Source: a virus (Duplodnaviria > Heunggongvirae > Uroviricota > Caudoviricetes). Taken from it: 64,000 nucleotides of DNA. A model generated the notes under the pieces. It was not told the DNA's origin. It ran no database searches and saw nothing but the letters and a program-made list of their open reading frames with translations. The position numbers and the translations under genes were made by a program. Shown in pieces: positions 12,040 through 59,836 of the stretch (position 1 is its first letter; every line of letters starts with the position of its first letter). The stretch lies in the IMG/VR virus record IMGVR_UViG_2513237141_000003, positions 1 through 64,000 of that record; one strand, written 5' to 3'.

Positions 12040-12075
12040 CCTGACGGGGACATCGGGGGACGTCGGGGACATCGA
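12040..12075 (+). repeat. GGGGACRTCG iteron x3, direct
   Basis: ggggacatcgggggacgtcggggacatcg. Confidence 0.7.
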
Positions 12076-12116
12076 CTCGCGCGCATCCCTCAAAGCAAAG
12101 ATTCTATCGGGTATGA

Positions 12117-12146
12117 AAAAAGGCGGCCCTGAAGGCCGCCTATTTA
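12117..12146 (-). terminator. rho-independent terminator downstream of the cI-like gene (A/T tracts on both sides)
   Basis: aaaaaaggcggccctgaaggccgcctattt. Confidence 0.6.
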
Positions 12147-12236
12147 ATTCGATAAATCTCTTTCCAATTACTGAGATCTGTATGTGTCTTAGAGTCTACT
12201 ATCTATTGTTTGTCTAATAGCAAAAGTCGTGCCAGG

Positions 12237-12275
12237 GACGATGTCCCCGCAATGTCCACTTTCAATGTCCCCGTT
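12237..12275 (-). repeat. GGGGACAT-family iteron x3, inverted relative to the 12040 array
   Basis: cgatgtccccgcaatgtccactttcaatgtcccc. Confidence 0.7.
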
Positions 12276-12939: not shown

Positions 12940-13025
12940 AAGTACCAGATTGGTGCAAGTCAGTCATCGAAACCGGATTGGTGAAAATGCCCGCTTGACA
13001 CTTCACCGACTTGGTGCAATTTTGC
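12940..13025. promoter_or_regulatory. cI/cro divergent control region with three TTGGTG(C/A)AA operator half-sites incl. TTCACC-gactt-GGTGCAA; TTGACA -35 for cro
   Basis: gattggtgcaag, gattggtgaaaa, cttgacacttcaccgacttggtgcaatttt. Confidence 0.45.
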
Positions 13026-13061
13026 GTGTCGCTGGCCGCACCCATCACGCAAGACGAATCC

Positions 13062-13791: not shown

Positions 13792-14232
13792 ATGGCTTTA
13801 ATGACGCCCACCATACAATCCGTACATCTGAAAATCTCGGAATTTTCGTCTCCGGCCTTCGCCTCCAAGGCGGACGAAGCAAAAGCGCTCGTGCGTCGGT
13901 GCGCGGAGCCGTGCCCGGCCGGTGACTCCGTCAAGGAAGCCATCAACCGCGCGACAGACCGGCTCGGCTTCTCGACTTCGCGAACACAGGACTTTTGGTA
14001 TGGGGAGGCCAGACGAATTGACGACAACGAAATCGACAGGCTGCGCTACGTGGCGGACGCGACTGAGATGTTGGTCGCTCAGGAAGCGCTCAAGACGCTT
14101 CGTAAGCGCATGGCGGTATCGGATTCTCCGCTGTCTCGTGAGGTCGTGCACCGCCTTGATGCTTGCTTCAGCCTTCTCCGCGGCGTTCCTTTCGGAATGC
14201 ATGTCGGACGGCAGCGGGGCTGCCGATCGTGA
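13792..14232 (+). CDS. hypothetical protein
   Basis: AGAGGG SD; AT-rich promoter-like region upstream. Confidence 0.45.
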   Translation: MALMTPTIQSVHLKISEFSSPAFASKADEAKALVRRCAEPCPAGDSVKEAINRATDRLGFSTSRTQDFWYGEARRIDDNEIDRLRYVADATEMLVAQEALKTLRKRMAVSDSPLSREVVHRLDACFSLLRGVPFGMHVGRQRGCRS

Positions 14233-14768
14233 ATAGGGTGCAGCACATATGGAGCGACGACAACATCGCCATGGTCCGCAATCTTGCGGACAAGGGTGAC
14301 AGTTCGGCCGAGATCGCCGCCAAGTTGAGCGCGGCCACAGCCCGGCGCGTCACGAAGAATGCGGTGGTCGGCATCTGCACGCGGAGGGGCATCCAGCTCA
14401 AGAACAAGAGTTTTGCGCCCGCAAAGCCGAAGCGGGAGCCGCAGCCAAGGTCTTATCTCGCGCCAAAGAATACTACCCCCGCACCCAAGGGGTTCGTGAG
14501 GGTGCCTACTCCGGTGATGTCGCCGGAGGCGACGCTGCCCATCACGAAATTTACTCCGGCTAAACCGTCGGAGACTAGCGTTTCGATTTACGAGCTTAAC
14601 TCTGATCTATGCCACTGGCCGTTGGGAGATTTCGCAGATCGCCCTCCGTACCGGTACTGCGGCGCGAGGGTCTTCGCAGGACCCTGGTGCCTCTGCCACT
14701 TCAGGCAGGCGACTGAAAACAAGGAGACCAGCCATGCCCAAGGGACATTCAAGGCCGAAGCAGCGTAG
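14229..14768 (+). CDS. gcrA: GcrA-like cell-cycle transcriptional regulator
   Basis: N-terminal W.DD...L..L...G.SA.EIAA.L....R.AV.GK..R.GL; C-terminal C.WP.GD.......CG......YC..H motif. Confidence 0.75.
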   Translation: MNRVQHIWSDDNIAMVRNLADKGDSSAEIAAKLSAATARRVTKNAVVGICTRRGIQLKNKSFAPAKPKREPQPRSYLAPKNTTPAPKGFVRVPTPVMSPEATLPITKFTPAKPSETSVSIYELNSDLCHWPLGDFADRPPYRYCGARVFAGPWCLCHFRQATENKETSHAQGTFKAEAA

Positions 14769-16157: not shown

Positions 16158-16343
16158 ATGCCGAAGGGGATCGAGGCGCGCGAGGCGCGCAGGTCGTTCG
16201 TACGTGTTCCGGTAGCGTCGCGCGTTTCTGAGGATCTTCGGGCGGAAGCAAAGCGCCGCGGTGTCGAATACGACGATCTCGCCGCCGAGATCATCGACAC
16301 CGTTGTCAATCATGGGCTCTACGCCGCTGTGTTGGATCACTGA
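16158..16343 (+). CDS. hypothetical small protein
   Basis: 61 aa; ATGA coupling to the primase gene. Confidence 0.45.
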   Translation: MPKGIEAREARRSFVRVPVASRVSEDLRAEAKRRGVEYDDLAAEIIDTVVNHGLYAAVLDH

Positions 16344-23338: not shown

Positions 23339-23581
23339 ATGATCAAGCTAACGCACAGCGAACGCCACTTCCTGGGCCTGCTCATGGAGGAGGGCGCTAC
23401 TATCAGCGTCGGCACGAACGTCGGCAAGTCGCTGCACCGGCGCGGCCTTGTCACCATCGCGAGGTGGAAGCGATACGGCATCACGCAAGAGGGCAAGGAC
23501 GCTTTCACCGGCGGCGCCGCGAAAGCCAAAACGCAAGAGCGCAAGCAAGCCTTGGCGGACGCGCAACTAGCCTTGTTGTGA
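23339..23581 (+). CDS. hypothetical protein
   Basis: TGAATG junction. Confidence 0.45.
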   Translation: MIKLTHSERHFLGLLMEEGATISVGTNVGKSLHRRGLVTIARWKRYGITQEGKDAFTGGAAKAKTQERKQALADAQLALL

Positions 23582-23815
23582 GGGGCCCTGCCAAGGGGCC
23601 ATGGGACCTAGCCAAGGGCCCGGAACCGCCCCTTTTGCAGTGCACAAACCGGGCCCGGATGAGGGGCCCGAAAGCAGGGGAAACCCTGCCATATGGCAGG
23701 GCCCGCAGGCTTGGCAGGGCAGGCAGGGAACCGCTTAGGCGAGGGGCCCGCTACCCGTGACCGGACAAGGGGAACCGGGCCCCGAGGGGCCCGCTTTTAG
23801 GGGCCCGAACTGCCG
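23581..23815. repeat. GGGCCC-rich cluster (about 9 copies of RGGGGCCCG-like motif in about 235 bp) at the convergent block junction
   Basis: counted by eye; expected <0.5 copies by composition. Confidence 0.7.
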
Positions 23816-23881
23816 GGAAATGGGCTATTTTACCCGGATATAAATAGAATACCTAAATACCGCCAAATGGGCAAATAAAAG

Positions 23882-23922
23882 GCCGTTGGCACTGGGTCGA
23901 AACCCATCGCCAACGGCCCCCC
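23882..23922 (-). terminator. rho-independent terminator ending the leftward late block
   Basis: 10-bp stem ggccgttggc/gccaacggcc followed on the minus strand by UUUUAUUU. Confidence 0.55.
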
Positions 23923-35467: not shown

Positions 35468-35950
35468 GTTGAAGTGGTCGAGCCACTCACGGAGTTGGTG
35501 GCGTTGCTCGCCGATGCCTCCGTGGGTGCGGGTGATGTCGGCATCGGCCGCGATCCAGCCTTCTTGCTGGAAATGGCCGATGTAGTGGTCGAGCACCCGG
35601 CGATATTCCGATCCCGCCGCCACCAGGATGCGCCGCCGAGCGGGGCGCATCTGTTGCTGGTGCGAGAGGGGCATGAATGTGTCGGATGCCTTGGTGAGGC
35701 CGCGCCGCTCCATGAAGGTGTCGGCGCGGCCCGGCGTCAGCCGCTGTTCGTACGGCTGTATCCACCGCTGGGCTTCAATGAAGCCGTACTCGGCTGAGAG
35801 GACGTAGACATCCGTCCAGTCGAACGCGCCGCGGTGCGTCTTGAGCGTGAGCCACATCGGCCCTTGGTAGAGCCGATGTGGTGGGCCTGGGTCTTTGCTC
35901 TTGGTGGCGCTACAGGCCATGAAGATGGCGGCGTCGCTATAGCGCCGCAT
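35444..35950 (-). CDS. hypothetical protein
   Basis: overlaps the upstream MTase stop. Confidence 0.5.
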   Translation of the reverse strand: MRRYSDAAIFMACSATKSKDPGPPHRLYQGPMWLTLKTHRGAFDWTDVYVLSAEYGFIEAQRWIQPYEQRLTPGRADTFMERRGLTKASDTFMPLSHQQQMRPARRRILVAAGSEYRRVLDHYIGHFQQEGWIAADADITRTHGGIGEQRHQLREWLDHFNRVRRPNT

Positions 35951-37742
35951 CGATCACGACCAGGGCGGTGTTGACCATCGTGCCGGACTCCTTGAACGTG
36001 CCGGCAGGAAGGTCACGCCACTCGACCGCGATCGGCTGAAGCTTGGCGCGCTGGCGCGGACCGTTGGCGCAGATCGCCACGATCCGGCCGCCCGGCCTTA
36101 ACAAGGTCCGCGCGTGCTCGATGTGGCGGATGTCTGCGCCGTTCTCGAATGGCGGGTTCATCACGATGCGGTCGAACTTCGCATCCTGCGTGCAGCCTGC
36201 CATGTCGAGAAAGTCCGCATTGACGACGGTCACGCCCGGGAAGCGTTGCGCCAGACCCTGCGCCAGCTGCGGATTGATCTCGACGGCGACCGCGCTCAGG
36301 CAGCCATCGACTGATCGGCGGGCGACATCAAGCAGCATGCCAGTGCCGGCGCTTGGCTCCAGCAAACGATGACCATCCTGCAAGTCGGCCAGCTCCGCCA
36401 CCTCTTCAGCCAGCGACGCTGGCGTCGGGAACAGTTGCGGAGCGGTAACGACCTGCACGCCGCCATTACGGAGAGTATCTGCCATGGCTTCGAACGACGA
36501 GGCTTCCGGCTTTTCCGTTTGCTCGGTGCGAGGCGGGCGGGCGACGAACTCCCGCACGAACTCGGCGGGCTCGGTCTTTTTCGGTTCCTGGTGTGCCTTG
36601 CTGTCGGTCAGGAACACGCTCACAAGGCTGTGCTTGATCATGGCCGTCCGGAAGCGGTGCAGCTTGTCCGACCCCAATCGCACGCCGCGATAGTCGTTAT
36701 TGATCTTGGCGTATTCCGCCTTTGTCATCTCGACCTGGGGGTAGGTGATCGTGCGGCCCCGGTCGTACTGGTTCTCCGTCGTGATGGCGCCGCCGGTTGC
36801 GCGGTAGTTGAGAAGCGGCATCAATTCCCGACGAGGCTTTGGCGCCAGCAGCTGGGTTGCGCCCTGTTCCTCAAGCATGGCGCGTTCGTAGGCCAAGCGG
36901 TTGTCGTAATGTTCGATCCAGCGGTCGCACTGCTCGATCGATCGCGGGTAAACCCGCTTTGCATGCTCGACGACCTCGGCCACGGTGCGCGGCGCGTAGA
37001 GGTTGGGGTAGCGGTTTGTCAGTCCGTCAGATGCTGTCGGACGCTGATCGAAATCCGGCTTGTCTCCTTCCTTGCGTGGCAGATGAAGCCAACAGCGATC
37101 TGCGATGGCGATCGCAATTTTCATTTGCTTGTCGGCATCCGCCTCACCCCCGCAAGCGGTCCAGAGCTTAAGCCACATTTCGGACTCAGCCTTGCTGCGC
37201 TCGCTCTTGCGCTTGTCGGCTTCAATGGTCTTGATGCGACGCGCGCGCACCTCCGGCAGTTCCTTGTACTTGGCATGCCGGACGGCGCCAGCGGCGCGCG
37301 CCGTCCAATATTGCGAGGTGCGCCACATCTTGACGGCCTTGCGCATGCCGTTCTCGATCCGCTCCGCATCCCTGCGTGCGTGCTTCTCGGAATGGTGACC
37401 CACGAGGATGGGTTGGCCAAGCGGGATATTGTCCGCGATCGCATCGACGGTGGCCTTTGCGCGATTGGCGTCGGCCATCCGCTTGTCGCTATAGTCCTCG
37501 AAGCGCTCTGCGCGCTCCTCGGCGCGGTCGATCAAGCTTGTGTCCTCGTCTCCGATCTCCTCGCAGAGTTCGGTCAACAGGTCCTCACGATCCGGCGTCC
37601 ACATGGGCGCAACGAATAGCTCTTGCTTCGGCGCCCACTTGAAGCCGGCGGCTTTCACGCGGGCATAGGTCTCGGCGTCGAGACGGGTCGAGGCATAGAG
37701 GCGGAGCTTGTTGTCGTCGGGGGAATAGGTGGCATTCATCAT
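35937..37742 (-). CDS. orphan N6-adenine DNA methyltransferase with ~450-aa N-terminal domain
   Basis: C-terminal motif I LEPSAGTG then motif IV NPPF (gamma-like order); no adjacent restriction-enzyme gene; cassette upstream. Confidence 0.8.
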   Translation of the reverse strand: MMNATYSPDDNKLRLYASTRLDAETYARVKAAGFKWAPKQELFVAPMWTPDREDLLTELCEEIGDEDTSLIDRAEERAERFEDYSDKRMADANRAKATVDAIADNIPLGQPILVGHHSEKHARRDAERIENGMRKAVKMWRTSQYWTARAAGAVRHAKYKELPEVRARRIKTIEADKRKSERSKAESEMWLKLWTACGGEADADKQMKIAIAIADRCWLHLPRKEGDKPDFDQRPTASDGLTNRYPNLYAPRTVAEVVEHAKRVYPRSIEQCDRWIEHYDNRLAYERAMLEEQGATQLLAPKPRRELMPLLNYRATGGAITTENQYDRGRTITYPQVEMTKAEYAKINNDYRGVRLGSDKLHRFRTAMIKHSLVSVFLTDSKAHQEPKKTEPAEFVREFVARPPRTEQTEKPEASSFEAMADTLRNGGVQVVTAPQLFPTPASLAEEVAELADLQDGHRLLEPSAGTGMLLDVARRSVDGCLSAVAVEINPQLAQGLAQRFPGVTVVNADFLDMAGCTQDAKFDRIVMNPPFENGADIRHIEHARTLLRPGGRIVAICANGPRQRAKLQPIAVEWRDLPAGTFKESGTMVNTALVVIDAAL

Positions 37743-37747
37743 TGATT

Positions 37748-37779
37748 GGTCTCCTTGAGTTATCCCGCTGCGAACGGGG
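37748..37779 (-). promoter_or_regulatory. hairpin-SD cassette
   Basis: cccgCTGCGAAcggg; MTase gene. Confidence 0.6.
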
Positions 37780-37783
37780 GTGG

Positions 37784-38161
37784 TTAGGCAGTGAGGAAGG
37801 TCAGGCCCTTGTCGAGCGCTCCAACGAAGTCGGTCAGCGTGTACTTGATCGTGGTCGCCTTCTGCCGATGGAATTGATTGATGGAGCCGACGACACAGAA
37901 CTCGTCGGGGTAGGTCGCATCGGACCTGCTGCTTGTGTGCCAGTGGCCGAGATAGGCGCCGATCTTCTCGGAACCGTCGAAGTGCATCATGCACTGGTAT
38001 GGTCCGCAGATCAGTTCGAGGCCGATCTCGCGAGGGCCGTTGAACTCATGCAGCTCGATGGTCGCGCCGTGCTTGTCGGCGATGGTGCGAACGGCGTCGA
38101 GACACTGCTGGCGTCCCTTCTTCGTGGCGCACAGGCGGTCGTACTCATTGTGTCGTGACAT
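37784..38161 (-). CDS. hypothetical protein
   Basis: cassette upstream. Confidence 0.5.
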   Translation of the reverse strand: MSRHNEYDRLCATKKGRQQCLDAVRTIADKHGATIELHEFNGPREIGLELICGPYQCMMHFDGSEKIGAYLGHWHTSSRSDATYPDEFCVVGSINQFHRQKATTIKYTLTDFVGALDKGLTFLTA

Positions 38162-46328: not shown

Positions 46329-46634
46329 TCAGTCGCGAACCGGCCAGCCGCGCTCGGCGGCGGCGTGCTTGGCGAGGGCGATGTGATAGGGCGTGACCCC
46401 CTTGCGCTGCTCGAAGCATTCGAGCAGCGTCACGCCCTCGGCCGGCGTGTGCAGGTGTCCGCGCTCTTTCGTCACGGCGACGGGCCAAGTATCGGCGATG
46501 CCGACAACCTTCTCGCTCTCGATCACGAGGATGTCGCCGGTCTCGACTGGGTACTCGCCGTCGAAGGCGTAGTGCACTCCGGTCTGGCAGGCATCGTATG
46601 CGTCGCCGGTCGTGCGGAAGGTGTGGGTGCTCAT
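46329..46634 (-). CDS. hypothetical protein
   Basis: cassette upstream. Confidence 0.5.
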   Translation of the reverse strand: MSTHTFRTTGDAYDACQTGVHYAFDGEYPVETGDILVIESEKVVGIADTWPVAVTKERGHLHTPAEGVTLLECFEQRKGVTPYHIALAKHAAAERGWPVRD

Positions 46635-46640
46635 GGTCGT

Positions 46641-46673
46641 GGTCTCCTTGGGGTTGGCCTGACTGCGATCAGG
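46641..46673 (-). promoter_or_regulatory. hairpin-SD cassette (loop CTGCGAT)
   Basis: gcctgaCTGCGATcaggc. Confidence 0.5.
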
Positions 46674-46878
46674 CGTTGAGCTTGGCGACTTCGGCGTCGA
46701 TGTGCGCCTGCGTTCCGCCGGTGGTGATGATCTTGGTGTTACCCTTGGCGTATTGTTCGCCATCGACGATGTCGTCGCGCTCCTGCTTGACGGTCTCAAG
46801 CTCCCAGTCGCCGAAGTGGATGCACCAGGGTTCGGTCTTGCTCTCGCGGACGAGGAGCGAGTGATACTTGCGGGACAT
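46669..46878 (-). CDS. hypothetical protein
   Basis: GGGAGG SD. Confidence 0.5.
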   Translation of the reverse strand: MSRKYHSLLVRESKTEPWCIHFGDWELETVKQERDDIVDGEQYAKGNTKIITTGGTQAHIDAEVAKLNA

Positions 46879-46889
46879 GATCGCCTCCC

Positions 46890-47243
46890 TCAGCCGCGAC
46901 CGTAGGCGCCGCGGCCGCCGCCCTTGCCCTTACGGCCCTTGCTGTTCGGGTACTTGGCCGCGTACTCGCGCTCCTCGCGCTCCCAGAGCTTGTCCTCGAC
47001 CTTCTCGTTTTGCTTGAGGATCGCGTCGTAGAGCTGATTCAGCTTGGTCCCCCAGGCGAAGTGGTAGCTGCAAACGCGGCGGGCGAGTTCCTCGCGCACG
47101 TCCAGGTCCTTGTAGGTCTTGCACGGCATCGCCTTGATCTTGAGCATCGTCTTGATCGCGGCCTGCTCTGCCGCCTTGGTCACGGCGTCGATGGAGGCGT
47201 CGGCTTTCTTCATGGCGGCGGTAACGGTCTTGAGGTTCAACAT
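46890..47243 (-). CDS. hypothetical protein
   Basis: SD 10-mer upstream. Confidence 0.5.
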   Translation of the reverse strand: MLNLKTVTAAMKKADASIDAVTKAAEQAAIKTMLKIKAMPCKTYKDLDVREELARRVCSYHFAWGTKLNQLYDAILKQNEKVEDKLWEREEREYAAKYPNSKGRKGKGGGRGAYGRG

Positions 47244-47271
47244 TGTTGGTCTCCTTGGGTGTGGGGTGAAA

Positions 47272-47577
47272 TCAGGCGGCGACGGGGATCAAGCCGAGGG
47301 TGATCGCCCGGAGGATGGCGCGCTCGTTCTCGCGGTTCTGGAAGTTGATGTAGGTCCGGGCGGAGCGGCGGTCGGCGAAGCGCTCGCCGTTGACCCAGAA
47401 GCCGACGGCTGATCCGTCAGTGCGCTCGATCATCCAGATGCCATCGTAGTTGATCGAGGCGGTGACGGCGTTGCGGATCGCGTCGGCTTGGTAAGCCCAG
47501 AGCGTCTGACGAACCTGCGTCTCGTTCTTGGCGGCGACGTTGCGGAGCGAATAGCGGGCATCGGTGTGGCGTTTCAT
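47272..47577 (-). CDS. hypothetical protein
   Basis: cassette upstream. Confidence 0.5.
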   Translation of the reverse strand: MKRHTDARYSLRNVAAKNETQVRQTLWAYQADAIRNAVTASINYDGIWMIERTDGSAVGFWVNGERFADRRSARTYINFQNRENERAILRAITLGLIPVAA

Positions 47578-47580
47578 GGT

Positions 47581-47631
47581 CGGTCTCCTTGGTTGCAGGC
47601 ATGAAAAAGGCCCCGCTGCGAACGGGGCCTA
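47581..47631 (-). promoter_or_regulatory. hairpin-SD cassette
   Basis: aggccccgCTGCGAAcggggcct. Confidence 0.6.
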
Positions 47632-47654
47632 GTTGGAAGGGCGGTGGCAGCAGA

Positions 47655-47843
47655 TCAGGCGCCGGTTTTGATCTCGGTGCCGTTGGCGAAGATCGAGACG
47701 ATCTTATCGCCGGAATGAACGAGAAACACGCCGTTATACCGGCGTGAGTGTTTGGCGGCATCCTCTTTGGCCTGCCGGATCGAGCGGCGCGGATGGGTTT
47801 CGAGTTCGCCATCGCCAGCGAGATGGCTGATTTTGATTTGCAT
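47655..47843 (-). CDS. hypothetical protein (first gene of the leftward block)
   Basis: cassette upstream; adjacent to the 1-kb control region. Confidence 0.5.
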   Translation of the reverse strand: MQIKISHLAGDGELETHPRRSIRQAKEDAAKHSRRYNGVFLVHSGDKIVSIFANGTEIKTGA

Positions 47844-47847
47844 GATC

Positions 47848-47906
47848 GGTCTCCTTGGTTTGAGGCGTAGAACGGTGCGGCGAAACATGCGCCGCACTGC
47901 GCTACG
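47848..47906 (-). promoter_or_regulatory. SD 10-mer + long nested palindrome
   Basis: ggcgtag..gtgcggcgaaacatgcgccgcac..ctacgcc. Confidence 0.45.
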
Positions 47907-48308
47907 CCTAGGGCCCGGTATATGACGGGGCCCTAGGGCATAGTGCGCAAAGCCCGGTTGCCCATTTGCGAAGCGGGGCCGGTTGCTACGAACAGCGCGG
48001 GAAACCACTGCAACGATGCGGAGGCCGATGCTTAATGAAGCGGGGCCAAAATGCGGGTGCAGTACCCGACAAGCCTAGACGGTGCTGTAAGCCTTGGCCC
48101 CATGCTGCGAGCGCAGACGGAGAGGCAAGCCACTATGCTTTGGACACCGGTGCATTGCCTTTTGTTTGAGGAGGCATTGCGCACCCGACCCGAGGCGGGA
48201 CTCTGCAAGGCTAACAGCGACTAGCTTGCTGTTAGGGCCATTCCGAGTAGGGGCGCAGTAGCGCAGGCCGGGCACTGCCAAGAGGCAAGCCCTTGGCAAG
48301 GGAGAGAA

Positions 48309-48360
48309 TGCACCAAGATGGTGAAAAACGGAAGCGAAAGTTTGCACCGCTTTGGTGCAA
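48309..48360. promoter_or_regulatory. two operator-like sites: TGCACCA-aga-TGGTGAAAAA and perfect TTGCACC-gcttt-GGTGCAA
   Basis: within the 1-kb control region between the divergent gene blocks. Confidence 0.45.
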
Positions 48361-48439
48361 TATATAGAGAGTGCCCTATTTTGGCCTAAGCCTTTGAAAT
48401 TGCTAGGTTTTACCCCAAAAACAGGCCCAAAACCGCCCA

Positions 48440-48735
48440 AAGGGGCCCCAAATTGGCCCCACACCCAAGGAATGGGCCCGGCCGGGCCCCGATAGAGCAG
48501 GGGACCCGCTACAGGGGCGGAAAGACCGGCGGCGCTAGGCAAGGCAGGGCCCGGGAAACGGCCCTATTGGGCCCGCGCTAGGGCCCCAGAGCTACCCCAA
48601 AATGGGCCCAAAAACGGGCCCCAAAAGATGAGCTGGCGAGGGGCCCCTGCGCCCAGGTACGCAGGGGTAAACAGGGAACGGCCCGAAACGGGGCCCATAG
48701 GCGGGAAGGCTGATTCGGGGCCCCAAAAGGGCCCG
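48440..48735. repeat. GGGCCC-rich cluster (about 12 copies, often GGGCCCCAAAA units) in the divergent control region
   Basis: e.g. tgggcccaaaaacgggccccaaaag; ttcggggccccaaaagggcccgcaa. Confidence 0.7.
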
Positions 48736-48744
48736 CAACCCCAT

Positions 48745-48985
48745 AGGGGACATTTGGCCCCGTAAGGGGACAACGAGACAGAGCGCGGAACGCCAAGGGG
48801 ACATTCGGGGGACATCGGCCTTTCGGCACCATGTCCCCTTCAACGGCGCCATTAGAGAAATCAATCACTTAAGCCCGTTATCGGAATCCCGACATCGGTC
48901 CCCGGCACCAGCCGTCCCGATGTCCACGTTCCCAGTCGAATGTCCCCATGTCCCCAAAGTGTCCCCTTTCGATGTCCCTTTAATG
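48745..48985. repeat. GGGGACAT iteron field: about 4 forward copies then about 6 inverted copies
   Basis: ggggacattt, ggggacaacg, ggggacattcgggggacatcg | atgtcccc x3, atgtccac, gtgtcccc, atgtccc. Confidence 0.7.
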
Positions 48986-49585
48986 TTCTGGCTGAGGACT
49001 CGCGACGCAGCTAACATCCTGATCCGCATGGCGGATATCGCGCAGACATTGGCGGCGGACGTTCTGGAGGCATCGGGGCTGTCGTGCCTGTATGCCGAGC
49101 CAGGCGCAGGAAGTGTGCGGATCACCATCGGCGGCATCGCTGCGCGCAAGAAACCCGGCACAAGGCTCTGGCTTCGCTCGCAAAAGCAGGCCGAACGGGT
49201 ATTGGCCGAGTTGATGGCCAGTCACCGCGAGGCGCGCAAGAACGCTCGTGGCGGCCTCTTCGTGGCCGCCGAGCCCGAGATGGTCGAGAAGATGCTGCGG
49301 GTGTGCGCCGGCCGCCTCGGGTATGCGATCTCGCCCGATGAGCACCTGGACGTCACGCTGTCCTCGCTTCAGAAGCGGATCGGCAAAGCCATCGACGCCC
49401 TGCAGTCCACCGGTCAGATGAAGAAGCTCAATCGAGAATATGCCGCGCTCCGAAAGGGGACATTGCTCGGGGACATCAAGGGGACATCGGGGACATCGTT
49501 ACCATCGTACTCCGAATGGCTGGTCGATCGGCTCAAGAAGCAGCTTCCGGCCTACACCAATCTGGCGAACTTCACGATTTTGTGA
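48983..49585 (+). CDS. hypothetical protein; its gene is embedded in GGGGACAT iteron arrays
   Basis: start uncertain (48920/48983/49028); four iterons lie inside its 3' coding region. Confidence 0.45.
   Translation: MFWLRTRDAANILIRMADIAQTLAADVLEASGLSCLYAEPGAGSVRITIGGIAARKKPGTRLWLRSQKQAERVLAELMASHREARKNARGGLFVAAEPEMVEKMLRVCAGRLGYAISPDEHLDVTLSSLQKRIGKAIDALQSTGQMKKLNREYAALRKGTLLGDIKGTSGTSLPSYSEWLVDRLKKQLPAYTNLANFTIL
49447..49497 (+). repeat. GGGGACAT x4 direct, inside the coding sequence
   Basis: ggggacattgctcggggacatcaaggggacatcggggacatcg. Confidence 0.7.
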
Positions 49586-49842
49586 TCAAATCTGAAACAC
49601 AAGCAATATCATCAAGTTGATATCGATTTTCGTCGTCGGTCCAAATTCATTGCGGAAAATCAGCATTGATCTCGGGCGGAAAATCGGCTCTACACGCGCC
49701 TGCGCCACGTCGACAAGTGTGTCTTGAAGGGTGAGGCGAGCTCAAGCGAGCCTCAACCCAACTCTCAGACATCTGACAAGACTGGGTGGAGAAGGTCTCT
49801 TAGAGATTCTCCATAGCGGCGCCTTCCTCACAAGCCAAGCGA

Positions 49843-49895
49843 TGTCCCCGACCCGGCAATGTCCCGGGGGCCGGAAGAGGACATGTCCCCCTTGG
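49843..49895 (-). repeat. GGGGACAT-family x3 inverted (incl. GGACATGTCC palindrome)
   Basis: gatgtccccgacccggcaatgtcccggg...gaggacatgtccccc. Confidence 0.6.
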
Positions 49896-50148
49896 CAGTG
49901 GGTGAAACTCTTCAACCGATCAGGGCCTCGCGCGGTGACGCTTGTGTTGGTCTCGCGTCCTGCGACCGCTCGACTAGTCCTGTTCGATAGGGAGGCCCTG
50001 AGCTTTTGCCTCCAAGCTGCGCTCGGGGTCTCCTTTGAAATCTGAACCGGGAATTAATTCCGGGTCAAAACCTTATGGCCGATTCTCAATCGGCAAAAAT
50101 TCCCCAACCCCACATCGTTGATCCCCCAACGTAGTCGGAGCCCCACCG

Positions 50149-50577
50149 ATGACTGACGTCGATTACTCGCGAGGCGGCGACGGCCCGAACCTCGGGCCCG
50201 CGACCGATCCGTTCAATGGCGACCAACCCACGGTGGCCTCGCCGCGCGTCGGCCGCATCGTCTACGAGCCGAGTCACGGCCCCGCGCATGCCGCTCGCGC
50301 CGTTGGCAGCGAGACGCCCAACTTCATCTCGACGGTCGGCGGCCGGCAGCAGGCCGAGCCGGCGCCCGATCCGATGCAGTCGCGCCAGGCCGAGGTCGCC
50401 AAGCTGATCGAGGAGCGACGCTTGCGCGATCAGTTCGCGGTGGCGGCGCTGCCGACAGTGCTTGAGTTCGCGATCGGGGCGGACGTGGCGGCTGAGCGCA
50501 AGCCAGCGATCATTGCGACGACCGCCTACGACATCGCCGACGCCATGCTCGCCGAACGCGCCAAGAGGTCGACGTGA
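50149..50577 (+). CDS. hypothetical protein
   Basis: ORF. Confidence 0.5.
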   Translation: MTDVDYSRGGDGPNLGPATDPFNGDQPTVASPRVGRIVYEPSHGPAHAARAVGSETPNFISTVGGRQQAEPAPDPMQSRQAEVAKLIEERRLRDQFAVAALPTVLEFAIGADVAAERKPAIIATTAYDIADAMLAERAKRST

Positions 50578-56606: not shown

Positions 56607-56682
56607 TCTGGACGTAGCGCAGTTGGTAGCGTACCGCACTTGGAATGCGGGGGTCGTCGGTTCGAGCCCGACCGTCCAGACC
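56607..56682 (+). tRNA. tRNA-Pro (TGG)
   Basis: cloverleaf; acceptor ctggacg/cgtccag; anticodon loop cuUGGaa; CCA encoded. Confidence 0.8.
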
Positions 56683-56684
56683 AA

Positions 56685-56772
56685 TCCGTGAGTGCCGGAG
56701 TGGTCAATCGGGGCGGGCTGTAAACCCGCCGGCTTTCGGGCCTTCGCTAGTTCAAATCTAGCCTCACGGACC
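56685..56772 (+). tRNA. tRNA-Tyr (GTA), long variable arm
   Basis: acceptor ccgtgag/ctcacgg; loop cuGUAaa; CCA. Confidence 0.8.
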
Positions 56773-56775
56773 AAT

Positions 56776-56851
56776 TACCCGCTTGGTCCAGTGGTCTAAG
56801 ACGTCGGACTTTGACTCCGAAGACAGTCGTTCAAATCGACTAGCGGGTGCC
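56776..56851 (+). tRNA. tRNA-Gln (TTG)
   Basis: acceptor acccgct/agcgggt; loop cuUUGac; CCA. Confidence 0.75.
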
Positions 56852-56894
56852 AAGAGATTGACCAGCCGCAGGTTGATCGGCTATCAGGCTGGGC

Positions 56895-57401
56895 ATGACC
56901 CTTGCCAAGGCTTCCCTCGTTGTAGCAGTCCTCATCGCCGCCGCGTCCAGCGCAGCCGGCGAGGGGCAGCCTATTACGGAGGCCATGAAGCCGGTCATGG
57001 CCGCAGCCCGCATCTTTGCGCTCGAAAACCACCTCCACGGCGACATCGCTGTTGCCGATGAGGACGAGGGCCACATCGGCCGCAGTTTCGAGGTCAACCA
57101 CGCCCCGGGCGAAGCCTGCACCTTCACGATGCGGCGCCGCGGCGGGCCAGTGATCGAGACGATCAGCTTCGATCGTCTGTCCGGTGAATATCACGCCTGG
57201 CCGCAGCACGGTTATGCGCGGCTCGCCATTTCAGGCCAGCCTGGCGCTCAGTGCGAGGTCAGCGGCGGCGTCAAGCGCTGCTCGCCCAACCTGGATATGC
57301 TGCTGATGGTCGAAGGCTCGCCGAGCGAGCTCGACCTGGCGCGGCGCGCGCTGGATTACATCTTCGAGAACGTGTGCCGTCCGGCACAACTGCCATTCTG
57401 A
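56895..57401 (+). CDS. secreted hypothetical protein inside the tRNA island
   Basis: signal peptide; 168 aa. Confidence 0.5.
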   Translation: MTLAKASLVVAVLIAAASSAAGEGQPITEAMKPVMAAARIFALENHLHGDIAVADEDEGHIGRSFEVNHAPGEACTFTMRRRGGPVIETISFDRLSGEYHAWPQHGYARLAISGQPGAQCEVSGGVKRCSPNLDMLLMVEGSPSELDLARRALDYIFENVCRPAQLPF

Positions 57402-57493
57402 AAGCTCAAGGTCACACCATGTCGTCGTTTAGTCACTCATCACATATCGCCGGAAGGGTGACGCGGTAACACGACCGCCGCCCTTCCTGTTTG

Positions 57494-57579
57494 CGGAGGG
57501 TGGCGCCCATGGTGGGCAAACAGTCTCGAAAACTGCGCCCCGGTCTCCCGGTGATGGTTCGAATCCTTCACCCTCCGCC
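57494..57579 (+). tRNA. tRNA-Ser (CGA), long variable arm
   Basis: acceptor ggagggt/accctcc, G73, CCA; loop cuCGAaa; coordinates +/-2. Confidence 0.7.
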
Positions 57580-57580
57580 A

Positions 57581-57656
57581 CGCCGAGGTAGCTCAGCTGG
57601 TAGAGCGGCGCGTTGAAAGCGCGCGCGTCGGAGGTTCGAACCCTTCCCTCGGCACC
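57581..57656 (+). tRNA. tRNA-Phe (GAA)
   Basis: acceptor gccgagg/cctcggc; loop uuGAAag; CCA. Confidence 0.8.
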
Positions 57657-57670
57657 AACTCTTCCCAAGG

Positions 57671-57746
57671 TGCCGGCTTAGTTCAATTGGTTAGAACGCT
57701 CGATTGTGGCTCGGGAAATCGCGGTTCGAGCCCGCGGGCTGGTACC
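57671..57746 (+). tRNA. tRNA-His (GTG), alpha-proteobacterial type (no G-1, A73)
   Basis: D/anticodon/T arms canonical; loop uuGUGgc; acceptor has three G-U pairs. Confidence 0.6.
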
Positions 57747-57785
57747 AACTTTCGCGGACTCGAACGGTGTGCTAAGGCGCACGCC

Positions 57786-57977
57786 ATGACCTTCGAGGAT
57801 GAGCTCACCGCACTGCTCATGAAGTATCTCGGTCCAGACGCGCGCCCGCGAGACTGGTACCGGATCGGCGGGGAACTGGAAACCGCGTTGCACTGGGTGG
57901 ACTCGCGGTCGTCGGCTAGGTTTACTCCAGAGGAGTTTGACGCCGATCTTGAAGCCGACGAGGCGGAGAGGGAGTGA
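57786..57977 (+). CDS. hypothetical acidic protein (64 aa) between tRNAs
   Basis: ORF MTFEDELTALL... Confidence 0.4.
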   Translation: MTFEDELTALLMKYLGPDARPRDWYRIGGELETALHWVDSRSSARFTPEEFDADLEADEAERE

Positions 57978-57982
57978 ATTTC

Positions 57983-58056
57983 GACGATGTGGCCGAGTGA
58001 TGAGGCAGACGGCTGCAACCCGTCTCACGTTGGTTCGATTCCATCCATCGTCTCCA
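57983..58056 (+). tRNA. tRNA-Cys (GCA)
   Basis: acceptor gacgatg/catcgtc; loop cuGCAac; CCA. Confidence 0.75.
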
Positions 58057-58254
58057 ATTCCGAGACCTCGGTAACTCCATCCCGCCAGATGATCACTGGC
58101 GCGGCCTGGCTCGAGGTGCGGATGCTCGCAAGGTAGACGGCGTCGCGGCTTGCGGCCTGCGGCGCCCGTGTCCATGGCTTGTCCCGTCCCGCCTTGCGTT
58201 TAGGTCTCTGCGTCGTCCGCTAGCGGCGCTCCGGCTAACGGGAAAAAGTTTCGT

Positions 58255-58330
58255 TGGGTTGTAGCTCAGTCGGTAGAGCAGGCGGCTGTTAACCGCCGCG
58301 TCGCTGGTTCGAATCCAGCCTTCCCAGCCA
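58255..58330 (+). tRNA. tRNA-Asn (GTT) with two U-U mismatches in the acceptor stem
   Basis: D, anticodon (cuGUUaa) and T arms canonical; CCA present; pairs 5-68 and 6-67 mismatched. Confidence 0.55.
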
Positions 58331-58331
58331 A

Positions 58332-58406
58332 GCCGGGGTAGCTCAGCGGTAGAGCAGCGACTTTGTAAGTCGACGGTCGTCGGTTCAAATCCCTCTCTCG
58401 GCACCA
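58332..58406 (+). tRNA. tRNA-Thr (TGT)-like, non-canonical T-stem (possible pseudo-tRNA)
   Basis: acceptor gccgggg/tctcggc (2 G-U); loop uuUGUaa; T-stem has two central mismatches. Confidence 0.45.
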
Positions 58407-58444
58407 ATTTCCTTCCCCATCTTCCCCAACAGACGAGTCCCCAC

Positions 58445-59749
58445 ATGCCTGATATCGGCGAGCGCAAGCTCGCGACGATCCGTCGCGTCTCGAAGATCGA
58501 CCCCATCGAGGGTGCTGACCGCATCGTCAAGGCCACCATCGACGGCTGGGAGCTGGTCACCCAGAAGACCAACTACCAGGTCGGCGATCTCTGCCTCTAC
58601 TTCGAGATCGACAGTTTCTTGCCGGTGCGGCCAGAGTTCGAGTTCCTGCGCGACAAGTGCTTCAAGTCGGTTGCAGGCCTTGGTGACGGCTTCCGCATCA
58701 AGACCATGAAGATGAAGGGCGTGGTGTCGCAGGGGCTTAGCCTGCCGCTGTCGGACTTCTTCGATAAGGAAGATGACGGCCGCTACTTCTACATCGCCCC
58801 GGAGACCAAATGGGAGCGTGAACGCCTCGAACGTCGTGAATGGGTCGAGCCGACCCGGGTCTTCCTTGAGGAGGGCATGGACGTCACCGACTACCTCGGC
58901 GTCAAGAAGTATGAAAAGCCGGCCGCCGGTAATGGCGGCGGGTCGAAGCTTGGCCCGACGCATGCCCGCGGCGGCTTCCCCGACTTCCTGCAAAAGACCG
59001 ATCAGGAGCGCATCCAGAACTGTCTGAGCGGTGTGCTGAAATGGATCTATTACGGAGCACCCGTCGTCACCGAGGTGTTTAATCCCGTAGTCATCGAAAA
59101 CCTGAACCTGGGTCGGGTCGAGAACAGCGCGGAGTCTTACTACTTCAAGTCCGGCGACCAGTGGTTCCACAAGGCTGCGGTCCGCAACGATGATGAGACC
59201 ATCGCCAAGCGCCAGCAGTTCGAAGTGACGCTGAAGCTCGATGGATCGTCGATGACGGTCTATCACAACGACTACAGCTACGGCGTCTGCTCGCGAAACT
59301 TCGACCTCAAGCGGGACGAGGCGTCGCTATTCTGGCAGCAGGCCGCCGATGGGATCATCGCGGCGTTGGTTGTCGTCGGCAAGAACGTGGCGCTCCAAGG
59401 CGAGCTGATGGGCCCCGGCATTCAGGGTAACCGCGAAGGATTCGCCACTAACCAGTTCTTCGCCTTCGACGTCTATGACATCGATCAGTCGAGGTACATG
59501 ACGCCGGATGAGCGGTTCGGCTTCCTGCGCAATCTGCAGGGCATTGGCTGCGGCATCCAGCACGCGCCGGCACTCGCTCATGACTACGTGCTCACCGAGA
59601 CGACAACGGTGAATGATCTGCTCAAGATCGCGGATCGGGCCAGCTTCAACAACCCGATCGCTGAAGGTGTCGTGTTCAAGTCCCTCGTCGCCGGCGGACC
59701 GACCTTCAAGGTGATCAACAACAAGTTCCTGTTGGCTGAGAAGGACTGA
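58445..59749 (+). CDS. ATP-dependent RNA ligase (Rnl-like nucleotidyltransferase) with N-terminal OB-like domain
   Basis: KxDG motif I (VTLKLDGSS); covalent nucleotidyltransferase layout; embedded in the tRNA island. Confidence 0.75.
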   Translation: MPDIGERKLATIRRVSKIDPIEGADRIVKATIDGWELVTQKTNYQVGDLCLYFEIDSFLPVRPEFEFLRDKCFKSVAGLGDGFRIKTMKMKGVVSQGLSLPLSDFFDKEDDGRYFYIAPETKWERERLERREWVEPTRVFLEEGMDVTDYLGVKKYEKPAAGNGGGSKLGPTHARGGFPDFLQKTDQERIQNCLSGVLKWIYYGAPVVTEVFNPVVIENLNLGRVENSAESYYFKSGDQWFHKAAVRNDDETIAKRQQFEVTLKLDGSSMTVYHNDYSYGVCSRNFDLKRDEASLFWQQAADGIIAALVVVGKNVALQGELMGPGIQGNREGFATNQFFAFDVYDIDQSRYMTPDERFGFLRNLQGIGCGIQHAPALAHDYVLTETTTVNDLLKIADRASFNNPIAEGVVFKSLVAGGPTFKVINNKFLLAEKD

Positions 59750-59761
59750 ATACACTTTCAT

Positions 59762-59836
59762 TGCAGGGTGGAGCAGCGGTAGCTCGGCGCGCTCATAACG
59801 CGTAGGTCGCCGGTTCGATCCCGGCCTCTGCAACCA
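59762..59836 (+). tRNA. tRNA-Met/Ile2 (CAT), elongator-type
   Basis: acceptor tgcaggg/ctctgca, with 1-72 paired; loop cuCAUaa; CCA. Confidence 0.75.

What the first reader, a model, noticed from the sequence alone, without database searches (positions are those of the whole stretch)
47850..48920. 1-kb noncoding control region between divergent gene blocks, packed with GGGCCC units, palindromes and operator sites
No credible ORF exists in this stretch; the track ORFs here have no RBS and low-complexity translations. Its contents:
- a nested palindrome at 47862-47906;
- a CTAGGGCCCGG-tatatga-CGGGGCCCTAG inverted repeat (47907-47940);
- gaagcggggcc twice;
- a ctaacagc-gactagct-gctgttag hairpin (48214-48238);
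- two cI-type operator palindromes (48309-48360);
- about 12 GGGCCC or GGGGCCCC units, often spaced by A-tracts (GGGCCCCAAAA), between 48440 and 48735;
- then the iteron field.
A similar GGGCCC cluster of about 9 copies lies at 23581-23815, where the rightward and leftward blocks converge. GGGCCC is self-complementary, so transcripts could fold into many alternative G-C hairpins. The A-tract phasing suggests intrinsic DNA curvature. Candidate roles: structured ncRNA(s), nucleoid-protein or phage-regulator docking, or insulation between convergent and divergent transcription units.
Basis: seen in the sequence. Interest (0 to 1): 0.6.

Follow-up and report, generated by a model that had tools for sequence, protein, structure and literature searches.

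The report
Conserved GGCC-repeat arrays in prophage control region
This 1.2-kb gene-free stretch is an early control region of a large Bradyrhizobium prophage, and its GGGCCC units belong to a real, conserved, strongly bendable DNA repeat array whose binding partner and role, most likely in replication, are still unknown.

Summary
The window holds 41 GGGCCC: 12 lie in 48443-48729 and 9 in 23583-23801. Markov simulations never give more than 3 per 300 bp.

The window is the left part of an integrated Bradyrhizobium sp. Tv2a-2 prophage. The gene-free stretch (47844-49027) is composite:
- two hairpins kept by compensatory changes, then a partly conserved leader;
- two TGCACC-N5-GGTGCA operators, the same sites that flank the cI-like repressor gene;
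- an AT-rich island;
- a ~330-bp array of GGCC words with A-rich spacers;
- GGGGACAT iterons, then a 185-aa gene that carries more iterons.

This layout recurs in five related elements. The second array also recurs at its own position in relatives. The exact hexamer is not conserved (GGGCCC, GGGCCT, GGGGCCG or CGGCCC), but the two arrays of one genome use the same words.

The arrays are strand-asymmetric (A far exceeds T). The phased start of the array has the highest predicted curvature in the window. Their RNA folds are no more stable than shuffled controls.

Best reading: DNA-level, iteron-like architectural arrays, probably origin-associated. No binding protein was identified.

The parts
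47655..47843 (-). First ORF (62 aa) of the leftward early block, with RBS AAGGAGA at 47849-47857 on the - strand. An intrinsic terminator follows at 47630-47608 on the - strand.
   Evidence: L127 and L128 have no equivalent ORF; there the terminator directly follows the two hairpins.
47863..47909 (-).
   Evidence: I4. It is kept in four relatives with compensatory changes, e.g. AU:2/UA:2 and CG:2/UA:2 pairs.
47907..47937 (-). Hairpin 2. Its stem is GGGCCC-containing in this genome and its loop GGTATATGAC is conserved.
   Evidence: I16. The stem sequence differs in L127, L055 and L128 but pairing is kept.
47940..48300 (-). Partly conserved non-coding leader. Blocks include GCGCGGGAAACCAGTGC, TACCCGAC, CCTTGGCCCCATG and GGGACTCTGCAA, plus the hairpin at 48213-48238.
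   Evidence: alignment with L127, L128 and L055
48309..48359 (.). Two operators, TGCACC-N5-GGTG(C/A)A, at 48309-48325 and 48343-48359.
   Evidence: The same sites lie at 11960, 12941 and 13002 around the cI-like gene and at 24426. They are present in L055, L127, L128, L129 and L130.
48360..48420 (+). AT-rich island (62% AT, 99.7th percentile of the window). Its ATATAT -10-like element directly follows the second operator. A rightward promoter is inferred.
   Evidence: The same operator-TATA(G/T)T arrangement occurs at 11994-12010 and in L055 and L127. The consensus scan does not flag it.
48411..48466 (+). Phased sub-array of five (G)GCCC(C)-AAA(A) units at 10-12-bp period. It has the highest predicted curvature in the window.
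   Evidence: (D1, D2). Equivalent segments in relatives.
48411..48740 (+). Array B: 17 GGCC words, 12 of them GGGCCC, plus GGCAGGGAAC-type words. Composition is 67% GC, with A far exceeding T on the + strand (AT skew +0.54).
48746..48985 (.). GGGGACAT iteron field: four forward copies (48746-48815) and about seven reverse copies (48831-48985).
   Evidence: (I2, I3, I14)
49028..49585 (+). 185-aa gene of unknown fold. Four in-gene GGGGACAT iterons (49456-49496) encode its disordered linker.
23583..23806 (+). Array A: 9 GGGCCC plus GGCAGGGAACC words, starting immediately after the stop codon of the 80-aa gene (23339-23581).
   Evidence: Equivalents in L001, L002, L003, L123 and L124.
23826..23890 (.). 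AT-rich island (63-70% AT) beside array A. It holds the conserved GGTATTTAGGTATT dyad (CCTAAATACC at 23852-23861) and is followed by a terminator hairpin.
12046..12272 (.). Second GGGGACAT iteron set. Three forward copies (two exact GGGGACAT at 12046 and 12065, one GGGGACGT at about 12056) and three reverse copies (exact at 12241 and 12265, one ATGTCCAC variant between them) flank the most AT-rich 60-mer of the window, next to the repressor gene.

Best explanation
The stretch is the second early control region of an integrated prophage.

**Shown.** Two operators of the prophage's own cI-type repressor lie next to an AT-rich island. To the left runs a leader with two structure-conserved hairpins into the leftward early operon. 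To the right lie a ~330-bp array of G/C words (GGGCCC and relatives) with A-rich spacers, then GGGGACAT iterons, then a 185-aa gene that contains further iterons. A sister array (A, 23583-23806) lies beside another AT-rich island at the end of the operon that encodes the primase-helicase.

**Inferred mechanism.** The GGGCCC units act as DNA, not as RNA. They would form an iteron-like, intrinsically curved and easily wrapped architectural array that docks a phage-encoded protein. The prime candidate is the AAA_25 primase-helicase, by analogy with P4 alpha and SaPI Rep. Arrays A and B would act as a two-site, ori/crr-like pair next to easily melted AT-rich DNA. After induction the repressor leaves the operators. 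Transcription from the adjacent promoter then runs rightward through array B and helps activate the complex. The lack of T on the + strand would let the G/C hairpins be transcribed without forming terminators.
For: - The clusters are real.
- The window is prophage early DNA. It holds an integrase at 1-1173, a cI-like HTH protein, a RecE-like exonuclease, a primase-helicase, SSB, NinB, ThyX and 10 tRNAs.
- The operators are the same sites as at the repressor gene.
- The whole layout (hairpins, operators, AT-rich DNA, array, iterons, gene with in-gene iterons) recurs in L055/L131, L130, L129, L127 and L128. Their homologues of the 185-aa protein are only 35-42% identical to it. The gene-poor gap in a sixth relative also recurs.
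- Array A recurs after the 80-aa gene in L001, L002, L003, L123 and L124.
- Word usage of arrays A and B matches within a genome (cosine 0.87-0.98) but not between genomes (mean 0.45). One genome has no GGGCCC in either array.
- GGCC-word density is 2.2-6.7 per 100 bp in the arrays against 0.85 in the background.
- Neighbour spacing peaks at 10-13 bp and its multiples.
- Predicted curvature is the window maximum at 48405-48470, and ranks high in relatives. Periodic GGGCCC/TA-rich DNA is reported as the most cyclizable sequence type (PMC13238741).
- Both arrays abut AT-rich islands in the top 0.3% of the window.
- Among GGGCCC arrays in unrelated viral contigs, three lie immediately 3' of primase/helicase genes (L013, L106, L109) and a fourth (L056) about 0.7 kb 3' of one.
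- RNA folding of the array is not better than shuffles, and there is no Rfam match.
Against: - No binding protein is identified.
- The hexamer is not strictly conserved, so recognition would have to be loose or co-evolving.
- Long-range helical phasing is significant only for array A.
- The array is 67-73% GC, which is unusual for origin iterons, and there are no DnaA boxes nearby.
- Array A lies 4.9 kb from the helicase gene, not adjacent to it.
- Cumulative GC skew peaks rather than dips near 49-50 kb.
- Array B lies in a probable transcribed leader, and the strong A>T asymmetry could equally reflect an RNA-level or strand-specific role.
- GGGCCC arrays in other viruses sit in mixed contexts, for example upstream of terminase genes in L081. 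The motif alone therefore does not define a function.
Confidence: 0.4

Rival explanations
1. Transcription architecture only. The curved, bendable array next to the operators tunes the early promoters or helps repressor-mediated looping between operator sets (48.3 kb with 24.4 kb and 12-13 kb). It has no role in replication.
For: The strongest predicted bend lies 50-100 bp from the operators and the -10-like element. Operators occur near both arrays, at 24426 and at 48309/48343. Periodic GGGCCC/AT DNA is highly cyclizable.
Against: In L055 and L130 the phased segment lies at the far end of the array, about 450 bp from the operators. A pure bend needs about 60 bp, not the 250-500 bp of word-specific repeats seen here. 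A bend also does not explain why the words of A and B co-vary.
Confidence: 0.2
2. RNA-level element. The array is a long 5' leader (B) and a 3' trailer (A) whose repeated motifs bind an RNA-binding protein. Candidates are CAGGGAA/GGA words in short hairpins, as in a CsrB/RsmZ-type sponge, or the C-rich phased start acting as a Rho (rut-like) loading site.
For: Strand asymmetry is strong and conserved in all 9 arrays examined: GGAA 43:1, GGCAGG 29:2, CCCAAA 11:0, AT skew +0.20 to +0.54. Both arrays lie downstream of rightward transcription. CCC words recur every 10-12 nt at the leader start.
Against: Fold stability is no better than shuffles. There is no Rfam hit. No CsrA-family protein appeared among about 90 ORFs scanned. 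G equals C over the array, which is not rut-like beyond the first ~40 nt. Positions are not alignable, so no covariation can be shown.
Confidence: 0.15
3. Polar insulator or terminator. Read leftward, the arrays give G/C hairpins followed by U runs, while rightward RNA gets A runs. They would therefore stop leftward (possibly antiterminated) transcription but let rightward transcription pass.
For: T is depleted on the + strand. One terminator-like site is called on the - strand at 48439-48422, and hairpin+T4-5 combinations occur at 48595-48630. Array A lies just beyond the end of the 23-kb leftward operon. L055 and L127 carry small leftward ORFs facing array B.
Against: Only one site meets the terminator criteria in B and none in A. 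Most T runs fall in loops, not after stems. No strong leftward transcription unit faces array B in this window.
Confidence: 0.1
4. No specific function: a slippage-prone low-complexity G/C tract kept by mutational bias or gene conversion between the two arrays.
For: Units turn over rapidly and are not alignable between relatives. The hexamer varies. An IS-like element sits inside the array of L001 without obvious harm.
Against: Position, length, composition, strand bias and adjacency to AT-rich islands are all kept. Meanwhile the flanking proteins have diverged to 35-70% identity and the neighbouring non-coding DNA is largely unalignable. Density is 3-8 times the background.
Confidence: 0.1

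Closest known systems
Phage P4 ori/crr with alpha primase-helicase, and SaPI/PICI origins (short iterons flanking AT-rich DNA, 3' of the pri-rep genes). Comparison from general knowledge.
   Same: Short repeated words (6-12 bp) occur in arrays beside AT-rich DNA. There are two separated cis sites in one genome. A large primase-helicase (AAA_25) is encoded in the operon that ends at array A. Among unrelated viral GGGCCC arrays, three lie directly 3' of primase/helicase genes and a fourth about 0.7 kb 3' of one.
   Different: No binding is shown. The arrays are G/C-rich and degenerate rather than exact iterons. Array A is 4.9 kb from the helicase gene. A second, unrelated iteron system (GGGGACAT) is interleaved.
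Lambda-type immunity/early control region (operators, divergent early promoters, ori inside the O gene in its linker-coding segment). Comparison from general knowledge.
   Same: Palindromic 17-bp operators are shared with the repressor-gene region. The blocks on either side are divergent early blocks. Iterons lie inside a gene, where they encode a disordered linker (residues 147-155 have pLDDT below 50). The repressor-controlled promoter lies upstream of the iterons.
   Different: This is a second operator region, 35 kb from the repressor gene. The 185-aa protein has no detectable similarity to lambda O or to any known fold. Lambda has no equivalent of the GGCC-word array.
Plasmid P1 oriR / incC-repA-incA, and GATC clusters at oriC. 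Comparison from general knowledge.
   Same: The order is the same: a cluster of a short palindromic word, then iterons, then a gene, then more iterons. Both have a dense cluster of a self-complementary short site.
   Different: No methyltransferase specificity for GGGCCC is known here. There are no DnaA boxes. The palindrome is lost in some relatives, so palindromy or methylation is not essential.
Intrinsically curved or highly cyclizable DNA made of phased A-tracts alternating with GGGCCC-type segments (PMC13238741).
   Same: Segment 48411-48466 alternates (G)GCCC(C) with A3-5 at 10-12 bp. It is the predicted curvature maximum of the window.
   Different: Only about 60 bp of the 330-bp array is phased this regularly. 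Long-range phasing of the rest is not significant.
R1 parC / ParR-type centromere arrays. Comparison from general knowledge.
   Same: Both have arrays of ~11-bp repeats next to a promoter.
   Different: No ParA, ParM or ParR-like genes were found in the window. The element is integrated, with an integrase at 1-1173.

Membership tests
cI-type operator/early promoter region | Palindromic operators identical to those flanking the element's own repressor gene | tested here: met
   TGCACC-N5-GGTGCA with at most 1 mismatch occurs at 48309 and 48343, and at 11960 and 13002 beside the HTH_3 repressor gene. A 2-mismatch copy lies at 12941.
cI-type operator/early promoter region | Operators overlap functional promoters and bind the repressor | not testable with these tools
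   A -10-like ATATAT follows the second operator, and the arrangement recurs at 12.0 kb and in relatives. The consensus scan calls no sigma-70 promoter.
Iteron-type replication origin (P4 ori/crr, SaPI ori, P1 oriR, lambda ori) | Multiple short direct repeats at about one helical turn | tested here: met
   Neighbour spacing peaks at 10-13 bp (24 of 62 gaps) and at its multiples. Words are directional.
Iteron-type replication origin (P4 ori/crr, SaPI ori, P1 oriR, lambda ori) | Adjacent AT-rich unwinding element | tested here: inconclusive
   AT-rich islands in the top 0.3% of the window abut both arrays. The one beside array B also holds the promoter-like element, and unwinding cannot be tested.
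Iteron-type replication origin (P4 ori/crr, SaPI ori, P1 oriR, lambda ori) | Cognate initiator of a known family encoded nearby | tested here: inconclusive
   An AAA_25 primase-helicase lies at 16343-18700 in the operon that ends at array A. The adjacent 185-aa protein matches no Rep family or fold.
Iteron-type replication origin (P4 ori/crr, SaPI ori, P1 oriR, lambda ori) | Host DnaA boxes (in DnaA-dependent types) | tested here: not met
   No TTATCCACA-like site lies within 20 kb of either array.
Iteron-type replication origin (P4 ori/crr, SaPI ori, P1 oriR, lambda ori) | Supports initiation of replication | not testable with these tools
   Needs marker-frequency, 2D-gel or ori-cloning experiments.
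Structured non-coding RNA (any Rfam family) | Match to a covariance model, or a fold more stable than shuffled controls, or covariation | tested here: not met
   For the array there are no hits at the gathering score and only chance-level hits at E up to 5. Fold z-scores are -0.61 and -1.67. By contrast, the two hairpins at 47863-47937 do show compensatory changes.
CsrB/RsmZ-type protein-sponge RNA | Many GGA motifs in hairpin loops plus a CsrA/RsmA partner | tested here: inconclusive
   GGA-containing directional words are abundant, but no CsrA domain appeared among the scanned ORFs. The host genome was not examined.
Partition centromere (parC/parS arrays) | Adjacent partition ATPase and centromere-binding protein genes | tested here: not met
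   There are no ParA, ParM, ParB or ParR families in the window. The element carries an integrase and is integrated.
Intrinsically curved DNA | A-tracts phased at ~10.5 bp, with predicted curvature well above background | tested here: met
   Segment 48405-48470 has a mean of 20.6 degrees and a maximum of 39, against a window mean of 7.9. It ranks first of the 64 kb.
Host REP/BIME-like extragenic repeats | Many copies dispersed in host intergenic regions | not tested
   The host chromosome outside the window was not available. Within the window only the two arrays exist.

The most novel reading that the evidence does not exclude
GGCC-word arrays could be an undescribed class of phage cis-element. 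They would be paired, co-evolving, strand-polar repeat arrays recognised by an as yet unidentified phage protein of unknown fold. They would serve as a two-site replication or genome-organising centre in a family of >100-kb Bradyrhizobium prophages. Analogous GGGCCC arrays are reused widely in unrelated viruses.
Probability: 0.2. Interest if true: 0.75.

Novelty: new variant of a known kind. Interest (0 to 1): 0.5.

Why it matters
Large temperate phages of rhizobia are almost unstudied, and their origins and early control circuits are unknown.

This locus offers a compact, testable map of one. It shows repressor operators shared between two or three control regions. It shows a structure-conserved leader ahead of a terminator, which is a candidate antitermination element. 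It shows two interleaved repeat systems (GGCC words and GGGGACAT iterons), each present at several loci.

The GGCC arrays evolve in concert within a genome while the exact word drifts between genomes. That is the signature of a co-evolving protein-DNA recognition pair and could lead to a new DNA-binding specificity.

Similar GGGCCC arrays occur in more than 100 unrelated viral contigs, several of them next to primase-helicase genes. A function established here may therefore transfer to many uncultured phages and satellites.

Tried and rejected
- **DNA similarity.** Searches of 46500-50500 against the phage and plasmid collections found no match.
- **Relatives of the 185-aa protein.** Single-protein scans of viral, genome and metagenome contigs found nothing. 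Relatives appeared only after profile searches. A final genome scan found none.
- **Other anchors.** The neighbouring 136-aa, 101-aa and 305-aa proteins gave no viral relatives.
- **P0002 contig.** It shows the same 1.39-kb gap, but its DNA could not be fetched.
- **RNA.** Rfam at gathering and at permissive thresholds gave nothing credible. The RNA fold of the array is not better than shuffles.
- **80-aa protein.** The model is too poor to search.
- **Specific partners.** No partition genes or CsrA were seen among the scanned ORFs. No DnaA boxes were found.
- **Phasing.** Long-range helical phasing of the whole array is not significant except in array A.
- **Shared neighbour gene.** Unrelated GGGCCC arrays have no single shared neighbouring family. 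There is only an excess of primase/helicase genes, and some arrays are coding Gly-Pro repeats.
- **Literature.** A search for GGGCCC phage repeats found nothing relevant beyond the cyclizability paper.
- **Smaller items.** GAAGCGGGGCC x2 is not conserved in relatives and is treated as chance. A weak ClpQY_promoter Rfam hit at 47575-47627 is just the terminator hairpin and falls below the gathering score.
Full report
**What is there**

- Hairpin arms lie at 47863-47882/47890-47909 and at 47907-47919/47925-47937.
- GAAGCGGGGCC occurs at 47970 and 48037.
- A small hairpin lies at 48213-48238.
- Two 17-bp palindromes lie at 48309-48325 and 48343-48359.
- Twelve GGGCCC lie between 48443 and 48734, followed by GGGGACAT repeats from 48746.
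- The second cluster has nine GGGCCC between 23583 and 23806.

The window holds 41 GGGCCC in all, so only 20 lie in the other ~63.5 kb. In 200 third-order Markov simulations, no 300-bp window held more than 3. The enrichment is therefore real.

No ORF in the stretch passes a GC3 filter that recovers the neighbouring genes. The downstream gene most likely starts at 49028. The database protein P0001 covers only the last 185 of the ORF's 221 residues, and homologue P0002 aligns from residue M37. The gene-free stretch is therefore 47844-49027.

**Context**

The 185-aa protein is 100% identical to a hypothetical protein of Bradyrhizobium sp. Tv2a-2 on a 380-kb contig. The window contains:
- a tyrosine integrase at its left end (1-1173);
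- a cI-like HTH repressor (ORF 12293-13063);
- a RecE-like exonuclease;
- a GcrA-like regulator;
- an AAA_25 primase-helicase (16343-18700);
- SSB, NinB and ThyX;
- a DUF3560-methyltransferase;
- an AAA ATPase;
- ten tRNA genes and an RNA ligase.

No structural, terminase or partition genes were found. The window is therefore the early/replication half of a large integrated prophage. It has no nucleotide-level relative in the phage or plasmid collections.

**The palindromes are repressor operators**

TGCACC-N5-GGTGCA with at most one mismatch occurs five times in the window. The sites are 48309 and 48343, 11960 and 13002 on either side of the repressor gene, and 24426. A two-mismatch copy lies at 12941.

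At 13002 the site sits between a TTGACA box and the start of a rightward gene. At 11994-12010 and at 48343-48367 an operator is directly followed by (A)ATATAT. The same operators are found at the equivalent place in every relative. The promoter itself is inferred, because the consensus scan does not call it.

**Relatives and conserved layout**

Profile searches recovered five related elements that encode a homologue of the 185-aa protein at 35-42% identity:
- L055/L131 and L130, two closely related IMG/VR proviruses;
- L129, a third provirus;
- L127, from a Logan assembly;
- L128, from a JGI metagenome.

A sixth relative is known only from its gene map.

All have a 1.2-1.65-kb gene-poor gap with the same order of parts:
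1. the start of a leftward operon;
2. two adjacent hairpins;
3. a partly conserved leader;
4. operators;
5. an AT-rich segment;
6. a G/C-word array;
7. GGGACAT iterons;
8. the gene, with more iterons near its 3' end.

The two hairpins keep their pairing through changes on both sides. Examples are AU:2/UA:2 and CG:2/UA:2, and the stem of hairpin 2 reads GGGCCC.../GGGGGC.../GTCGGGCC... in different genomes. In L127 and L128 an intrinsic terminator on the minus strand follows them, immediately before the first ribosome-binding site. The window has the same terminator at 47630-47608, after a 62-aa ORF. This arrangement resembles a leader that controls read-through into the leftward operon. That is an inference, by analogy with nut/put-type antitermination.

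**The array itself**

GGGCCC is only its most visible word.
- The array (48411-48740) has 17 GGCC-centred hexamers, which is 5.0 per 100 bp against 0.85 in the rest of the window.
- It also has directional words such as GGCAGGGAAC, and A-rich spacers.
- All nine arrays examined, covering both positions and six lineages, are 67-73% GC with A far exceeding T on the plus strand (AT skew +0.20 to +0.54).
- They share one-sided words: GGAA 43:1, GGCAGG 29:2, GGAACC 15:0, CCCAAA 11:0.
- Neighbour spacing peaks at 10-13 bp, then 20-27 and 30-38 bp. Long-range phase coherence is significant only in array A.
- Units are not alignable between relatives, so what is conserved is position, length, composition, polarity and word type.

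**The second array**

Array A starts right after the stop codon of a conserved 80-aa gene, the last gene of the rightward operon that contains the primase-helicase. It is followed by an AT-rich island that holds a conserved GGTATTTAGGTATT dyad, and then by a terminator.

The same arrangement occurs in L001, L002, L003, L123 and L124. The word differs between them:
- GGGCCC in L001/L002;
- CGGCCCT in L003;
- GGGCCT/AGGCCC in L123;
- GGGGCCG in L124.

Within a genome the A and B arrays use the same words (cosine 0.98, 0.87, 0.94, 0.98). Across genomes the mean is 0.45. Contig 2695421015 has no GGGCCC in either array. Two of the four genomes are close relatives, so this amounts to about three independent observations. 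It still points to a shared trans-acting reader, or to gene conversion between the two arrays.

**DNA or RNA?**

As RNA, the array folds no better than dinucleotide shuffles (z = -0.61 plus strand, -1.67 minus strand), and nothing in Rfam matches.

As DNA, the start of the array (48411-48466) consists of five (G)GCCC(C)-A3-5 units at 10-12 bp. This is the predicted curvature maximum of the whole 64-kb window in a Trifonov-type wedge model. The equivalent phased segments rank first, second and third in L055, L128 and L127. A recent analysis found that the most cyclizable DNA alternates 5-6-bp TA-rich with 5-6-bp GC-rich segments such as GGGCCC (PMC13238741).

Both arrays abut AT-rich 60-mers in the top 0.3% of the window. 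The T depletion on the plus strand can be explained without an RNA function. G/C hairpins followed by U runs would terminate the rightward transcripts that must cross both arrays.

**GGGCCC arrays elsewhere**

A pattern scan of viral contigs hit more than 119 stretches. Many are non-coding, regular arrays. One example is L004, with two sets of four GGGCCCAATAAA flanking a 60-bp spacer. Others are coding Gly-Pro repeats.

The neighbours are heterogeneous. Even so, three of about 26 non-coding arrays lie immediately 3' of a primase/helicase gene:
- L013 (VapE/PriCT_2);
- L106 (D5_N/DUF5906);
- L109 (AAA_25).

A fourth, L056 (AAA_25), lies about 0.7 kb 3' of one. One further array (L081) lies upstream of lambda-type terminase genes. 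The motif is therefore a recurrent building block for protein-binding arrays, with an excess near replication genes. It is not a single homologous system.

**The iterons and the 185-aa protein**

GGGGACAT occurs 18 times, against 1.9 expected. The copies lie:
- in the field at 48746-48985;
- inside the gene (49456-49496);
- downstream of the gene (49842-49890);
- at 12046-12272, where forward and reverse copies flank the most AT-rich 60-mer of the window, next to the repressor gene.

The protein models well (pLDDT 80), and its disordered linker (residues 147-155) is exactly the iteron-coding segment. It has no fold or family match. Its role as the iteron binder is a guess. The parallel with lambda O, whose origin lies inside its own gene, is architectural only.

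**Verdict**

The finding is real and conserved. The most economical reading is a composite early control and origin-like module in which the GGGCCC units belong to a DNA-level, iteron-like, bendable array paired with a sister array. I put this at about 0.4. Within it, the replication role is the least secure step.

The rivals cannot be excluded without transcript, binding and replication-mapping data:
- promoter/looping architecture (0.2);
- RNA leader or sponge, or a rut-like site (0.15);
- polar insulator (0.1);
- non-functional low complexity (0.1).

Noticed in passing
window 11960-12290: This is a compact module next to the repressor gene. Two operators and an ATATAT element are followed by three forward iterons at 10-bp spacing (two exact GGGGACAT, one GGGGACGT), a terminator-like hairpin (12113-12145) and the most AT-rich 60-mer of the window (about 12150-12225). 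Three reverse iterons follow (two exact, one ATGTCCAC variant). It could be the real origin or a small regulated transcript.
   Followed up: partly
window 23845-23890; L001 21625-21660; L002 16390-16420; L003 15335-15365: A conserved block, TTTGCYC-N8-9-GGTATTTAGG(T/C)A(T/C), lies between array A and the terminator of the leftward gene. L124 has GGTATTAAAATACC instead. It reads as a leftward promoter (TTGCTC-N17-TATTCT) pointing into array A, or as a dimer binding site. It occurs once in the window.
   Followed up: partly
L001 16318-21568: A 5.2-kb insertion with inverted ends (GGGTAGTGGGTCAGTTT / AAACTGACCCACTACCC) splits array A of this relative. The otherwise near-identical L002 lacks it. 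It looks like an IS inserted into the array.
   Followed up: no
window 47863-47937 with 47630-47608; L127 4105-4240; L128 735-860: Two adjacent covarying hairpins lie directly upstream of an intrinsic terminator, ahead of the first gene of the 23-kb leftward operon. This is a candidate cis-acting antitermination or attenuation leader. In the window a 62-aa ORF sits between the hairpins and the terminator, but L127 and L128 have no such ORF.
   Followed up: partly
window 49586-50148: A second gene-free stretch (~560 bp) lies after the 185-aa gene. It holds three reverse GGGGACAT-type iterons (49842-49890) and AT-rich segments. L128, L129 and L130 also have a TGCACC-N5-GGTGCA operator near the end of the homologous gene.
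   Followed up: no
window 56608-59836: An array of ten tRNA genes (Pro, Tyr, Gln, Ser, Phe, His, Cys, Asn, Thr, Met) is interleaved with an RNA ligase gene (58445-59749).
   Followed up: no
L004 11160-11303; also L088, L106, L081, L046, L109: Unrelated viral contigs carry very regular GGGCCC arrays. One example is two sets of four GGGCCCAATAAA flanking a ~60-bp spacer, an origin- or centromere-like design. L081's array lies upstream of lambda-type terminase genes, where a cos site would be expected.
   Followed up: partly
L126 5111-6083: A homologue of the 80-aa protein lies in a small integrase-AlpA-AAA_25 helicase element, right after an Sf6-type small-terminase-like gene and without any GGCC array. 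The 80-aa protein is therefore not always tied to an array.
   Followed up: no
L055 1030-1330 (minus strand of the rc view); L127 5062-5244: Unrelated small leftward ORFs (60-64 aa) are inserted between array B and the iterons in two relatives. This suggests a tolerated insertion point for extra genes.
   Followed up: no
window 14163-14765 and 35937-37994: The prophage encodes a GcrA-like regulator and a DUF3560-methyltransferase fusion. Whether the methyltransferase targets any of the repeated words was not examined.
   Followed up: no
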